From Octopus sinensis (taxonomy: Eukaryota), in contig NC_043015.1 of NCBI RefSeq assembly GCF_006345805.1, forward strand, positions 22,692,001 to 22,756,000: DNA of 64,000 nt, read 5' to 3'. Below are positions 2,303-50,888 of the stretch, in pieces. Under the pieces are notes generated by a model that searched no databases, had not been told where the DNA came from, and saw only the letters and a program-made list of their open reading frames with translations. Position 1 is the first letter of the stretch, and each line of letters opens with the position of its first letter. The translations under genes were made by a program, and so were the position numbers.

Positions 2303-2730
2303 GCTGGAGGAAATGTCCTCCTGGGACTAAAAACAATCCTATCATCAGCCTCCTATGGGACCGCCACATTGAGCTGGCAAATATACTTCACGATTCCGTG
2401 CTGCTACTGTTTACTTCTCGATCAGAGATTTAATATTGCTTGTTTTTTCCCCTTACGAGATCAGCGACAGTTTATCAAAAGAAACAGCATGTAGTATTTT
2501 GTGTAGGTGATTATCACACACTGATGACGGGTTAATATGCAGGAATCCGTGTCTGTGTGTATCACGTAAGGCTAGAGATAGGAACGATTGTTTCTCTTCG
2601 CGACTACTAATCAGACACTCACGCACAGTATGTCGTTAGCCTGGTGATAAAGATGTCCTCCTGGGGCTAAAAACAACAGAAGCATCGTCCTCTATTGGAC
2701 CGCTACATTTAGTTGACAAATACACTTCAC
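2303..2730 (+). mobile_element. Small non-coding element with ~90 bp diverged terminal direct repeats and a decayed hammerhead (Penelope pLTR or retrozyme-like)
   Basis: 2303-2391 resembles 2641-2730 (atgtcctcctggg.ctaaaaacaa...accgc.acatt...aaata.acttcac). Internal cacaca-CTGATGA...GAATCCGTGTC-tgtgtg. Confidence 0.6.
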
Positions 2731-2859
2731 TATATATATATATATATATATGTGTGTGTATATGTGTGTGTGTATGTATGTATGTATTTATACGTATATA
2801 TGCAAATATATATGTGTATGTATATCTGTATATGTATATATATATATGTATATATATAA

Positions 2860-3225
2860 ATACTCTTTTAGATGTTTCAGCCATGTCGTATTGACATGCT
2901 GGGGCATCAACATAGCCTTTCTGACTTCCTCTGTCTCGGTGTTTCACATCAACACATCAAATGCATGTGCATTTATCCTAGCTGTTGGTATAGTTTCGTG
3001 TATAAGGGAGTTTTATTCCACTGCCCTAGTCTGTACTTCTTGTCAGGCTGTTGGTTTTTCTAGTATTGTGGACAGAAGGATTTCTAGATCCTTTTTGATG
3101 GTATTTACTTCTATCTTATGCGAATTCCTTAATTTTTGTGGCAGGGAACTGAAGAGCTGTGGGCGTTTGTACCCTAGTTTATTGCAGTACCTGGTCCTTA
3201 ATTTAGATGGAGTGTGTGGTACCGT
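2860..3225 (-). mobile_element. 3' end of a CR1-like LINE, degenerate
   Basis: Minus strand reads RPQLFSSLPQKLRNSHKIEVNTIKKDLEILLSTILEKP..RAVE*NSLIH, like an ORF2 C-terminus. It is followed by a ccagcatg..hairpin..ctgaaac tail similar to local SINE tails. Confidence 0.6.
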
Positions 3226-4080
3226 TGGTTATAGATAGATAACCACTATACGTATATATTTCTGTGTTTGAATCCGCTCTGTATTACTTAATGCTTCGTG
3301 GTTAACGACGGATTCATAACCTGTGCACGCACACATGCATTTACAATCATTCACACACACACACACACAAACACACACACACACACACACACACACACAC
3401 TTTATTGTCCAGCTGAAAATAAAGCAAGTGATTATAATCTCGTATACGCATTTTCAAAAATCCATGGTGCTTAACAGAAATCCAGCCAAGCACATTCGCT
3501 GGCAGTGAATAGCTAATTCCAATACCAAATGAATTCTAACAGTTTTCTGCAATCATGATATCGGAAACGTGAAAATCCACACTGTAAAATATTATCAGAA
3601 ATCATGATTTATTGTCGTTAGAGATTATGAGATTAAAACTTGTTATTTTTACTACCCTGTAGTGAGCCCGCACCATATTGTTGATTTTTTTTTCCAAAAC
3701 ACAAAGTTAACACAATTTCTTGATCTTAAGCTCATCTTAAAATATAAGAGGTTTATAAAACAGTAAACAATACTCTAGATTCTTGTCCTGTTATTTGGTG
3801 TTTTATCTCGGAGAAAACTAGGGAATATTTAATATTACGGTTAAAATTTGCTTTATACATCCCGTTATATCTTGCGTGCTAAGTAATTCAATTACTATGT
3901 ACATTTACTAGGTGTTGGACAGTATATATAATTATGAGGCATGAATTATCCAATTCTCTGATTAATATTTGGTGTTGCTTAACAAAAAAAAAACCGGAAA
4001 AATGATTCCAACATATCTCTAAATCTTAATACATGTAGACAAAATTACATATCCATTTAATTGGAATATATATATAAAGC

Positions 4081-4961
4081 TGTATATATATAAAACTGAG
4101 AATGTGTGTCTGTCTGTCTGTCTGTCTGTCTGTGTGTTTCCCTAAAACTTGAGAACTACACAATCAATTTCATTCAAATTTTACACATGCCTTACTTAGG
4201 GTCCGTGGAGTGTCATCGGCAACAGAATTTTGAACTTTTTGCCTAGGGCGAGACCAAAGCAATATCATATCTTCTCCACTACGATTCCCTAAAACTTGAA
4301 AACTACACAACCAATTTCATTCAAATTTTACACATGCCTTACTTAAAGTTCATGTAGTTTCATGAGCAAAAACAATGTTCAATTTCTTGCCTAGAGCGAG
4401 CCCATAGCAATATCATATCTTCTCCACTATTTCAGTATTACGTGTTAAAAGTGAAACAAAAATATTTCTCTATTTTATGTCAGATGATTTCACTTTAACA
4501 ATGAAAATAATAATAACAATTGAATTATATGTAGTAAGTAATAATTGAAATCAAACTAAAGTATAATATAATCGTAACATACAAAAGTAAAAATAGCAAA
4601 TGGCATAAAATTGCATCAATGATTTGAACTTGAATAAGTGGTTTCACAAGAATGGGAATAAATTAAAGATAAAATTAGCGTGCAGAAATGGAATAGTCCA
4701 GATGGATACTAAAAAATTAAATTAAAGAAAAGACTATTGTCTATAAAGTAAACAATGTAGAGAAAAAAGAAGAGCTAACAATTCCAGTCTGTTATATATT
4801 TGAGTATTGTTATCACTAGCGATATCAAGATATAACTCTGTATTTTGCATTTTATGTGTAGATGTATATATATAGATGTACATGTAATATGCACACATAT
4901 ATATACACATATATACATGCACTAGCACTATGAACCGGCAACGACGGGTCTTTAATGCTAG
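4081..4961 (+). mobile_element. Non-autonomous Helitron-type element
   Basis: 5' tatatataaaactgagaatgtgtg(tctg)n; 3' GC-rich imperfect hairpin (4934-4949) then CTAG|T at 4958-4962; internal ~145 bp tandem duplication; 5' part homologous to 25085-25358 (-). Confidence 0.75.
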
Positions 4962-5088
4962 TATATATATATAGTAGTACTAACAGAAAAGAGGAATTTC
5001 GGATGTCCCCACGTGGTGAATTGTAATGTATATAAGAAATTAAAAAAGGAAAATACGCACACTTACATGGTTATAATATAATTTTTAA

Positions 5089-48951: not shown

Positions 48952-49015
48952 TTCTGATTTAATTCTGATATTTTGGTAATAGTTTCTGATTTAATTCTGA
49001 TATTTTGGTAATAGT
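48952..49015. repeat. Tandem duplication, period 32 bp
   Basis: ttctgatttaattctgatattttggtaatagt twice. Confidence 0.9.
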
Positions 49016-50049
49016 TTCTAAAATAGATATGGGCCCAGAAATTTTTTCGCCAGAGTAAGCAGCTACAATACTGACCCAGTGTTTCCTTATATCGATTGCA
49101 GAAGAAAGAAAGCCAAAGCACACAGAGGAGATGCATAAAAAGGTGAGTGAAAGCCCCAGGAAAGAGTTGCTATATACTCTGACTAATCCACATCATTAGT
49201 AATGCTAATTAGAATGATGGTGATTTCAATTTTTAATTTCACTACTGGGGACCTGAATCCATGTAAACAAAACAAAAACAGATATTTTAATGATTTCTGA
49301 ATTGGCACGGTTCCATTCTGAATTCAGAGAAGGGAGAACTTTAACAAATCGGCATCGGTTGTACCACGCGTTGTATGTAATTTACCTTCCTCATCTTCGG
49401 AGATAACTATATATATATATATAATATATATATATATATATATATAATATATATATATATATATATATATATATATGTATATATATGTATATATATATAT
49501 ATATGTATATATACATATATATGTATATATATATATGTATATATATATAAGTATATATACATGTATATATGTATATGTATATATATATGTATATATGTAT
49601 ATATGTATATATATATATATTATATGTATATATATGTTATATATATGTATATATGCATATATCTATATGTATATATATATATATATATATATGTATATAT
49701 ATGTATATATAATATGTATATATGCATACATCTATATGTATATATATATATGTATATATATTATATATATGTATATATGCATATATCTATATGTATATAT
49801 ATATATGTATATATGTATATCTATATGTATATATAGCAAGCCTGGACCTATCATAAATAAACGACCCTACCTCGCCTAAGCCGAGCAGCCAACTGATCAA
49901 CATCAACGAAGCACATGGGTGAGTTTACATATATTACATCCGTAACTGTCAGACTTTTACGAATTGCATTTCGGGGAAAGAAAAGTTTTTTCGCAATAAA
50001 GTTGGCTGCTCGGCTTAGGCGAGGTAGGGTCGTTATTTATGATACGTCC

Positions 50050-50098
50050 AGGCTTGCTGATGAATACAGAGGTATGAAATCGCAGGTGATACAAGTCT
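50050..50098 (+). ncRNA. Type I hammerhead ribozyme
   Basis: aggcttg CUGAUGA atac agag gtat GAAA tcg cagg tga UA caagtct. All core nucleotides are present and three stems pair. Predicted cut after 50091 (AUA). Confidence 0.85.
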
Positions 50099-50839
50099 AT
50101 ACTTTTAAATGTCTTACTTTGAAAAATTGCATTCGGTGGGATTAGTAAAATTTTTGGTAGAAATGACTAATTTTGTCCCTCTTAGCGTGTGGCATGTATG
50201 TATAATAATGCCCTCTATATATAAACTATATGTATATATATATGTATATATATGTGTGTGTATATATATGTATATATATTATATGTATATATATACATAT
50301 ATATGTATATATATAAGTATATATACATGTATATATGTATATGTATATATGTATATGTATATATATATAGTATATATATATATATATATGTATATATATA
50401 TATATGTATATATGCATATATCTATATGTATATATATATATCTATATATATATATATGTAATATATATATATATATATGTATATATATGTATATATATAT
50501 GTATATATGCATACATCTATATGTATATATATATATGTATATATATGTATATATATATGTATATATGCATATATCTATATGTATATATATATATGTATAT
50601 ATGTATATCTATATGTATATATAGCAAGCCTGGACCTATCATAAATAAACGACCCTACCTCGCCTAAGCCGAGCAGCCAACTGATCAACATCAACGAAGC
50701 ACATGGGTGTGTTTACATATATTACATCCGGTAACTGTCAGACTTTTACGAATTGCATTTCGGGGAAAGAAAAGTTTTTTCGGAATAAAGTTGGCTGCTC
50801 GGCTTAGGCGAGGTAGGGTCGTTTATTTATGATACGTCC

Positions 50840-50888
50840 AGGCTTGCTGATGAATACAGAGGTATGAAATCGCAGGTGATACAAGTCT
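50840..50888 (+). ncRNA. Type I hammerhead ribozyme, identical second copy
   Basis: Same sequence as 50050-50098. Confidence 0.8.

What the first reader, a model, noticed from the sequence alone, without database searches (positions are those of the whole stretch)
2303..50888. Recurrent architecture: small microsatellite-embedded elements with a hammerhead and an inverted copy of their own flank
Several loci with little shared primary sequence (4990-6195, 21064-21450, 22288-22748, 23760-24060, 49835-50228; related 38641-39150; direct-repeat form 2303-2730) combine an HHR fold with a duplicated flank, mostly next to (TA)n. HHRs in Penelope pLTRs and in retrozymes are established. A dense, multi-family population of non-coding fold-back HHR elements with breakpoints at the ribozyme may be an undescribed non-autonomous PLE-mobilised class. 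It could also be a genome-wide source of long dsRNA for A-to-I editing or small RNAs (inference).
Basis: partly seen in the sequence, partly recalled or inferred. Interest (0 to 1): 0.85.

Follow-up and report, generated by a model that had tools for sequence, protein, structure and literature searches.

The report
Penelope-built hammerhead fold-back insertions
These small hairpin-shaped repeats are real: most are two cut-short, head-to-head copies of a mobile element bearing a hammerhead RNA motif, likely pasted next to TA repeats by Penelope-like retrotransposons in a known pattern, but one likely non-coding family seems to have thousands of copies whose joins crowd near the predicted cutting site.

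Summary
The observation mostly holds. Every named locus has its repeat arms. Hammerhead (HHR) cores are intact at D (22527) and E (50057, 50847), variant or decayed at B, C, G and F, and broken at A. There are seven independent loci: E and G are tandem duplicates, and D and G are relatives. The 'inverted flank' is a second, 5'-truncated copy of the element. B is not non-coding: it is two head-to-head stubs of an RT+GIY-YIG Penelope-like element (PLE), joined inside the endonuclease. Public contigs show D belongs to a very large family (order 10^4 copies, rough). All 17 readable sibling junctions differ, so the fold-back is built anew at each insertion. The family has two TA-abutting 3' ends about 100 nt apart, the PLE 'tail' signature. 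Inverted copies, tails, microsatellite bias and non-autonomous HHR derivatives are all published. What remains of interest: 8 of 17 inverted copies stop 0-24 nt after the predicted cut (biased sample), and one contig hints at a ~490-nt non-coding unit. Cleavage, expression and editing are not shown. Verdict: new members of a known kind.

The parts
2303..2730 (+). Locus A: decayed partial tandem of a 340-nt unit; direct repeats 2313-2394/2653-2733; broken HHR (CUGAUGA at 2521, long stem I, GAAA and stem III missing); (TA)n at right end
5026..5645 (-). Locus B, minus copy: 5'-truncated RT+EN PLE (GIY-YIG, residues 288-436 of P0001, 77%), lacking about 330 nt that the plus copy holds, with minimal HHR (A3-U8 core at 5119, palindromic CCGG, predicted cut after 5095)
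5644..6195 (+). Locus B, plus copy: endonuclease C-terminus (residues 420-479 of P0001, with a stop and a frameshift), 3' UTR, decayed HHR (about 6110), ending at (TA)n; head-to-head junction at 5643-5645 inside the endonuclease
21064..21452 (+). Locus C: old fold-back; arms 21066-21116/21392-21445; HHR core at 21280 intact, stems I and III decayed, predicted cut after 21329
22288..22514 (-). Locus D, inverted copy: runs from +6 after the predicted cut through the 124-nt arm and about 100-nt tail (terminal hairpin 22302-22336) to (TA)n
22515..22746 (+). Locus D, sense copy: starts 12 nt before C3; intact type I HHR (C3 at 22527, 19-bp hairpin in loop II, 4-bp stem III, GUA, predicted cut after 22617); arm ends at the family's inner 3' end, at (TA)n
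23851..24059 (.). Locus F: head-to-head pair, arms 23851-23948/23955-24059, each starting 3 nt before a minimal-HHR-like core (U3-A8 type at 23945 minus; decayed at 23958 plus); read by eye; no TA run nearby
38641..39149 (-). Locus G1, relative of D: sense copy with HHR (C3 at 38961, G8A, predicted cut after 38883), arm and tail to (TA)n; inverted short copy 39054-39149 starting at +5, ending at (TC)n
39263..39770 (-). G2: tandem duplicate of G1 (507/507 aligned columns identical); post-insertion duplication or assembly error
49836..50216 (+). Locus E1: arms 49835-49894/50000-50058; intact compact type I HHR (C3 at 50057, AUA, predicted cut after 50091); the inverted copy's outer end falls at U4 and covers the 5' strand of stem I
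50624..51006 (+). E2: tandem duplicate of E1 (378/381) with its TA-rich spacer

Best explanation
Most loci are two 5'-truncated copies of a hammerhead-bearing element lying head to head, likely written next to (TA)n runs by the reverse transcriptase-endonuclease of a Penelope-like retrotransposon, and the differing sibling junctions indicate that the hairpin is built anew at each insertion. Shown: the two-copy anatomy; B as stubs of an RT+GIY-YIG PLE with a CxxxxCxxC linker; a very large D family with a linear HHR-arm-tail form, two TA-abutting 3' ends about 100 nt apart, and junctions that differ copy by copy. Inferred mechanism: the PLE protein nicks both strands of AT-rich DNA; each strand primes reverse transcription on a copy of the RNA, one from the outer and one from the inner start site (giving the one-sided tail); the two cDNAs stop early and join through short AT-rich or ribozyme-stem microhomologies. 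Inferred, weaker: one cDNA often ends just after the cut because its template was HHR-cleaved RNA or because RT stalls at stem I. D/G and A are most likely short non-coding, retrozyme-type passengers (units of about 490 and 340 nt); B is an autonomous family. The shared core of this reading (PLE-built, per insertion) I put at about 0.87; with non-autonomy of D/G and A, 0.55.
For: B: PF01541 E 1.5e-5; 77% to RT+EN protein P0001; opposite-strand pieces meeting at 5643-5645. 6 of 13 related PLE loci carry a CUGANGA HHR, 3 with B's GAAA-CCGG-U, one inverted upstream of the ORF. D family: 12,391 contigs in X1 and 5,308 in X3; linear HHR-to-arm joint in 22 X1 contigs; 17 different arm-to-ribozyme junctions; (TA)n loose ends at 22388-22392 (22 X1, 14 X3, 1 X15) and at 22290 (1 X15); siblings continue 75-106 nt upstream of D's sense start. 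For non-coding: frame-shifting indels at 2-14% of X1 depth across arm and tail, stops in all three frames, codon-phase test D vs G not significant; record 10 of X15 links the tail end to the HHR through 157 nt; A repeats at 340 nt with no TA run between. Literature: inverted 5'-truncated copy, optional tail, TA bias, non-autonomous Chlamys (PMC8557442); inverted pLTRs, pLTRs sufficient in trans (PMC3846280); both strands cut and extended, two RT start sites (PMC11167929); opposite-strand HHR pairs 100-700 bp apart (PMC4209133); retrozymes as PLE derivatives.
Against: No genome was held, so no full-length D-family member or partner PLE was seen; non-autonomy rests on one contig with 157 unseen letters and on decayed locus A. 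The tail is about 100 nt, not the 30-40 nt in print. The tail block shows a borderline codon-phase signal (p 0.06), as an ORF start in a pLTR would. Sibling joints have 20-28-nt sides, nearly all in one contig each. F has no TA neighbour and its HHRs score as noise. C, E and F show no significant likeness to D/G (best p 0.024 among 55 pairs), so their partner families are unknown. The organism is not identified.
Confidence: 0.55

Rival explanations
1. All loci, D/G included, are 3'-end stubs (pLTR plus tail) of autonomous PLE families, each independently truncated; no non-autonomous family is involved.
For: B is exactly this. D siblings extend upstream of the HHR by at least 106 nt of unseen sequence. 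pLTR plus tail can hold the first 12-22 codons of the ORF (PMC3846280), and the D/G tail has a borderline third-position signal (p 0.06). Cervera 2014 ascribes single and opposite-strand HHRs to truncated PLEs.
Against: tblastn of 8 PLE proteins hits only B significantly. X15 record 10 puts the tail end 157 nt before the next HHR; A repeats at 340 nt; frequent frameshift indels in arm and tail.
Confidence: 0.32
2. One reading: non-coding master elements whose fold-back is part of the element, with a breakpoint fixed at the ribozyme.
For: D (+6) and G (+5) stop at nearly the same place; E and F also break at the ribozyme; 8 of 17 sibling junctions end 0-24 nt after the cut.
Against: All 17 sibling junctions differ; depth dips at D's junction as at the stretch ends, and 56 X1 contigs leave it for the linear form; the tail sits on the inverted copy in D but on the sense copy in G; D's arms are identical while D and G differ by roughly a third; B and C break far from the HHR.
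Confidence: 0.05
3. The inverted arm arises by self-priming or fold-back synthesis on an antisense template or first-strand cDNA, helped by palindromes in the ribozyme, rather than by two primed cDNAs (Arkhipova 2013 model). The elements are still PLE-mobilised.
For: PMC3846280 reads palindromes at inverted junctions this way. Two sibling junctions centre on the near-palindromic stem III, and others have 4-5 nt of microhomology. F has a 6-nt loop.
Against: Either arm can carry the tail (D vs G) and both outer ends abut TA runs at preferred positions, which fits two priming events; most loops are 50-270 nt, not tight turns.
Confidence: 0.05
4. They are MITE- or Helitron-like DNA elements, or assembly fold-back artefacts, and the HHR matches are chance.
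For: Terminal hairpin at 22302-22336; a near-perfect palindrome without HHR exists at 43458-44072; E and G duplicates may be assembly errors; Rfam finds no hammerhead.
Against: 3 strict cores against 0.17 expected; none of the 10 listed family variants in 22515-22625 touches core or stems; arms are asymmetric and not terminal; arm divergence ranges from 0 to 20%; other runs hold the family.
Confidence: 0.03

Closest known systems
Insertions of endonuclease-bearing Penelope-like elements with inverted pLTR and tail (Penelope/Poseidon, Neptune, Nematis, Naiad; PMC8557442, PMC3846280)
   Same: 5'-truncated copies, an inverted second copy head to head, a one-sided tail, microsatellite bias, HHR near the 3' end; B is such an element, with the CX2-5CxxC linker tied to microsatellite bias.
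   Different: D/G tail about 100 nt (E about 160 nt) rather than 30-40 nt; D and E carry canonical cores with a 3-4-bp stem III instead of minimal motifs; no ORF seen for A, C, D, E, F, G.
Animal non-LTR retrozymes (PMC7229834; bioRxiv 10.64898/2026.07.22.740005)
   Same: Short non-coding units with a type I HHR, related to PLE pLTRs, also dispersed as monomers; A (340 nt) and the D family (about 490 nt, hint) fall in the reported 51-972 bp range.
   Different: Defined as head-to-tail arrays with two or more HHRs that yield circular RNA; here dispersed inverted pairs with a PLE tail, and no array or circle shown. 'Inverted' occurs 0 times in PMC7229834.
Opposite-strand minimal HHR pairs and U3-A8 core variants in Schistosoma PLEs (PMC4209133)
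   Same: F and B are dual minimal HHRs on opposite strands; F has the U3-A8 core.
   Different: B has A3-U8 in both copies, not seen in the 6 related loci with a clear HHR; F's pair is only about 10 nt apart.
Non-autonomous PLEs: Chlamys MRC1 (PMC8557442), short non-autonomous Penelope of Heliconius (PMC6685494)
   Same: Short passengers that form PLE-type insertions.
   Different: Those share 3' sequence with a known autonomous partner (Chlamys); no partner is identified here.

Membership tests
EN+ Penelope-like element (locus B) | C-terminal GIY-YIG endonuclease on an RT protein | tested here: met
   PF01541; 77% to P0001, which has PF00078; RT itself is lost by truncation
EN+ Penelope-like element (locus B) | HHR in the 3' repeat | tested here: met
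   Motif at 5119, score 30.3; same GAAA-CCGG-U form in 3 of 13 related loci; core variant A3-U8 untested for activity
EN+ Penelope-like element (locus B) | Inverted 5'-truncated second copy | tested here: met
   Opposite-strand pieces join at 5643-5645
Neptune clade | CX2-5CxxC linker and placement in an RT tree | tested here: inconclusive
   Linker present in the ORF; no tree was built
PLE-type insertion (D family) | Optional one-sided tail (two 3' ends) | tested here: met
   (TA)n loose ends at 22388-22392 and 22290; length about 100 nt, longer than in print
PLE-type insertion (D family) | Variable 5' truncation and variable inversion points | tested here: met
   17 of 17 readable junctions differ
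PLE-type insertion (D family) | Link to an autonomous PLE by shared pLTR sequence | not testable with these tools
   No genome; no hits; no match to 13 PLE loci
Non-LTR retrozyme | Type I HHR with intact core | tested here: met
   D, E1, E2; not met at A (no GAAA) or G (G8A)
Non-LTR retrozyme | No coding capacity in the full unit | tested here: inconclusive
   No ORF or PLE protein match in the parts seen; upstream part of the D family unseen
Non-LTR retrozyme | Head-to-tail repeats with at least two HHRs | tested here: inconclusive
   None in the window (E and G pairs are duplications with TA spacers); A is about 1.25 units; one contig hints at a tail-to-HHR link
Non-LTR retrozyme | Self-cleavage and circular RNA | not testable with these tools
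   Only contigs available
Rfam hammerhead families | Covariance-model match | tested here: not met
   No hammerhead hit up to E 10 at E or C/D/F
Proposed fixed fold-back class | Breakpoint shared among copies at the ribozyme | tested here: not met
   Junctions differ copy by copy; B and C break far away

The most novel reading that the evidence does not exclude
The D/G family is a non-coding, roughly 490-nt hammerhead retrozyme present in about 10^4 copies and inserted with the full Penelope signature, and its inversion points pile up just after the cut site because ribozyme-cleaved RNA is a real template in vivo. That would be direct genomic proof that PLE enzymes move retrozymes, a first record of what the PLE hammerhead does, and a large built-in supply of perfect hairpin RNA for editing or small RNAs.
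Probability: 0.2. Interest if true: 0.7.

Novelty: new member of a known kind. Interest (0 to 1): 0.4.

Why it matters
The role of the hammerhead in PLEs is open: Craig 2021 calls it unclear, and Frangieh 2024 found cleavage dispensable in vitro and no reads ending at the cut. A young family of order 10^4 copies, each recording where two cDNAs started and stopped, makes that testable from one long-read assembly. The link between retrozymes and PLE enzymes rests so far on co-occurrence and pLTR likeness; PLE-type tails and inversions on a non-coding unit would be structural evidence. Rfam misses these ribozymes, so such families are likely filed as unknown repeats. As dsRNA sources they have precedent (Penelope inverted repeats give siRNA in flies; lizard Penelope is heavily edited), so that part would be confirmation rather than surprise.

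Tried and rejected
Whole-genome search: no genome held. Pattern scans for D or E found 0 matches in metagenome, viral (twice) and prokaryote genome contigs. Earlier findings: nothing by place, sequence or long word list. No RNA holder is on record; two 'RNA?' runs cover all 29 bins of D but are guesses and contigs, so they say nothing on expression, ends or level; no place with many ends was listed. Editing: X15 shows A>G 3 and T>C 6 of 17 changed places against 2 and 3 of 17 in DNA run X1; every one also occurs in X1, so inconclusive. A shared 3' motif among C, D, E and G, seen by eye, failed the test except for D-G. Codon-phase test D vs G covered only the 88-nt tail block and was not significant (p 0.33 and 0.06). 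CUGAUGA at 5316 is the reverse complement of endonuclease codons and has no GAAA: rejected. That all 17 junctions pair an arm end with an HHR-region start is probably a detection bias of the laid stretch, so it was not used. A minimal-HHR regex found 1 hit (B) against 0.48 in shuffles: uninformative. A homolog search with the window's LINE RT did not place the host. Lunse 2017 (PMC5785218) was not held.
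Full report
Setting. The window is 33.7% GC, rich in TA microsatellites, with LINE and mariner remnants, so it is animal DNA. No genome is held. My impression that the host is an octopod is recall and was not confirmed: a homolog search with the LINE RT named no such host. I call the loci A (2303), B (5026), C (21064), D (22288), F (23851), G1/G2 (38641, 39263) and E1/E2 (49836, 50624).

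Are the repeats there? Yes. Arms align at A 66/81 (direct, 340 nt apart), C 42/51, E1 58/59, F 78/98, G1 92/96, D 124/124 and B 94% over 169 nt. D folds at -276.8 kcal/mol, z -30 against 100 shuffles. E2 and G2 are tandem duplicates of E1 and G1 (378/381 and 507/507), so there are seven independent loci. D and G are homologous over about 230 nt (z 15.6); no other pair of loci passed. 8 of 14 ends lie within 2 nt of a (TA)>=4 run against 3.2% background; G's right end abuts (TC)n; F has no TA run within 800 nt.

Are the hammerheads there? A strict descriptor finds 3 cores (D, E1, E2), against a mean of 0.17 and a maximum of 2 in 100 shuffles. A relaxed scorer ranks E1, E2, D, B, C, G2, G1 first; 5 hits reach 29 against a mean of 0.53 in 30 shuffles, but G ties with a noise hit and I allowed variant cores after seeing B. 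By eye, F holds two minimal motifs of the U3-A8 type head to head, and A has core and stem I but no GAAA; neither rises above noise. Rfam finds none. In the D family none of the 10 listed variant places in 22515-22625 touches the core or the stems; all lie in the loop II insert. D and G both carry a long hairpin in loop II with different sequence. Cleavage is not shown anywhere.

B is an autonomous PLE stub. Its ORF matches GIY-YIG (E 1.5e-5) and RT+EN proteins at 54-77% (3 hits among 133 candidates). tblastn shows a minus copy (residues 288-436 of P0001) and a plus copy (420-479) meeting at 5643-5645, inside the endonuclease and about 490 nt from the plus copy's cut site. The linker is CxxxxCxxC, the motif Craig 2021 ties to microsatellite bias in Neptune; I built no tree. 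Of 13 related loci, 6 have a CUGANGA hammerhead, 3 with B's GAAA-CCGG-U, and one lies inverted upstream of its ORF. So ordinary PLEs make this architecture in this genome.

The D family. I laid four runs, all contigs, on 22288-22625, which holds tail, one arm and the HHR. X1 gave 12,391 contigs and X3 5,308. Median summed depth over median depth of one-contig joints is about 1.9 x 10^4; the tool warns this is no copy number, so I take it as an order of magnitude. Four results follow. (1) The linear form HHR-arm is common: 22 X1, 12 X3 and 3 X15 contigs, plus 56 loose ends at 22514. (2) Siblings run on 75-106 nt upstream of D's sense start, so D's sense copy is truncated. (3) (TA)n loose ends sit at 22388-22392 (22 X1, 14 X3, 1 X15) and at 22290 (1 X15): two 3' ends about 100 nt apart, and D's right arm stops at the inner one. 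(4) Of 23 distinct joints shown in tables 5 and 5c (12 rows of table 5 were hidden), 17 link the inverted arm to the HHR region, and all 17 differ. The other six are the two linear joints and four within arm or tail.

Breakpoints. The inverted copies in those 17 end at 0, 0, +8, +10, +21, +22, +23, +24, +54, +74, +101, +102, +121, +135, +168, +178 and +207 from the cut; 8 of 17 fall in 0-24 (uniform expectation 12%, p 4 x 10^-4; 8 of 12 if limited to +110, p 0.001). The bin was chosen after seeing the data, sides are only 20-28 nt, and junctions with both ends on the same side of the cut were probably invisible. Sense copies end between -12 and -96, six of them at -50 to -57 in the AT-rich loop II hairpin. 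In the window, D (+6), G (+5), E (U4) and F (both copies 3 nt before the core) break at the ribozyme; B and C (+63) do not. So breakpoints are not fixed but lean toward the ribozyme.

Non-autonomous or not? For: one X15 contig reads tail end, 157 unseen letters, then the HHR, which would make a unit of about 490 nt; A repeats at 340 nt with no TA run between; frame-shifting indels reach 2-14% of X1 depth in arm and tail, and all three frames have stops. Against: the upstream part is unseen, that contig's two pieces differ in divergence (2 of 87 and 15 of 71), and the tail shows a borderline codon-phase signal (p 0.06). I put non-autonomy of D/G near 0.6.

Mechanism. Shown in vitro for an anole PLE: both target strands are cut and extended, AT-rich sites are preferred, and RT starts at two internal sites that define the tail (PMC11167929). 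I infer two primed cDNAs, one from each start site, that stop early and join by microhomology; either can carry the tail (inverted copy in D, sense copy in G). A cDNA ending at the cut ends in the sequence of stem I's 5' strand, which would offer the homology; stalling at stem I is the alternative, and Arkhipova 2013 proposes self-priming. In the folding model the fold-back leaves D's ribozyme about as accessible as in the sense-only RNA (7.9 vs 7.1 kcal/mol above the minimum) but blocks E's (16.0 vs 7.2), which argues against the hairpin being a shared design.

What is known. Inverted 5'-truncated copies, 30-40-bp tails, (TA)n bias and non-autonomous Chlamys (PMC8557442, passages; PMC8969392, passages); inverted and solo pLTRs, pLTRs acting in trans (PMC3846280, passages); opposite-strand HHR pairs and U3-A8 cores (PMC4209133, parts 1-2 of 4); retrozymes and their monomers as PLE derivatives (bioRxiv 10.64898/2026.07.22.740005, parts 1-3 of 5; PMC7229834, passages); short non-autonomous Penelope in butterflies (PMC6685494, passages); siRNA from Penelope inverted repeats (PMC3681739, passages); heavy editing of lizard Penelope and high dsRNA potential in octopus (PMC5625713, passages). 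PMC11167929 was read in parts 1-2 of 4, PMC13282606 in parts 1-2 of 3 (30 recently active Penelope families in O. vulgaris), PMC6962438 and PMC8490949 as passages. I found no paper on octopus hammerhead repeats or on inverted retrozyme insertions; the library lacks most subscription journals, and I read no supplements or repeat libraries, which may already hold this family. Earlier notes of this scan on other genomes reach similar readings (8 of 23 shown); they are unchecked and were seen after my reading was formed.

Verdict. The features are real but belong to a known kind: PLE-built, truncated, inverted insertions beside microsatellites. The new-class claim fails on fixed breakpoints and on B. 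The large D/G family, its long tail and its cut-proximal junctions deserve a genome-wide look. Interest 0.4.

Noticed in passing
window 38393-38590: Unlisted decayed fold-back just left of G1 (arms 74%); both arms begin in what looks like the 3' half of a hammerhead (stem II end, GAAA, short stem III, UA) and it ends at the same TA run.
   Followed up: partly
window 24176-24255 and 24648-24724: Direct repeat 63/77 with 472-nt spacing; between them a CUGAAGG...GAAACGCG remnant and a 25-nt match to the D arm (z about 4); possibly another decayed partial tandem.
   Followed up: partly
window 43458-44072: Near-perfect palindrome (99.4% over 162 nt of unique sequence) around a TA run, no hammerhead; may be an assembly fold-back.
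   Followed up: partly
window 22445 (table 7): 34 X1 contigs keep D's 3' 158 nt but continue into other sequence, suggesting a subfamily or chimera that shares only the 3' end.
   Followed up: no
window 5119 (-) and 6110 (+): Both B copies have A3 and U8 in place of C3-G8, a compensated core not seen in the related loci.
   Followed up: partly
window 12479-14431 and 45459-47398: Two 5'-truncated copies (93.7%) of a non-LTR RT element whose 5' breaks abut (TAA)n runs; another RT fragment at 61145-63711.
   Followed up: partly
window 58438-59715: Mariner-type transposon remnant with 43-nt inverted ends and DDE domain.
   Followed up: no
window 607-1001 and 29278-29665: Repeat (89.6%, inverted pair) with a terminal hairpin and telomere-like GGTTAG units.
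   Followed up: no
window 28788-29026, 40905-41143, 21827-21892: Further old inverted repeats (68-76%) with no convincing hammerhead.
   Followed up: partly
window 38593-38645 and 39865-39885: (TA)n followed by TTGTA stands on both sides of the G1/G2 block, like a target duplication made of the microsatellite edge.
   Followed up: no
L010:2350-2390: A related PLE from another metagenome has an intact hammerhead on the opposite strand just upstream of its ORF match, an inverted pLTR.
   Followed up: no
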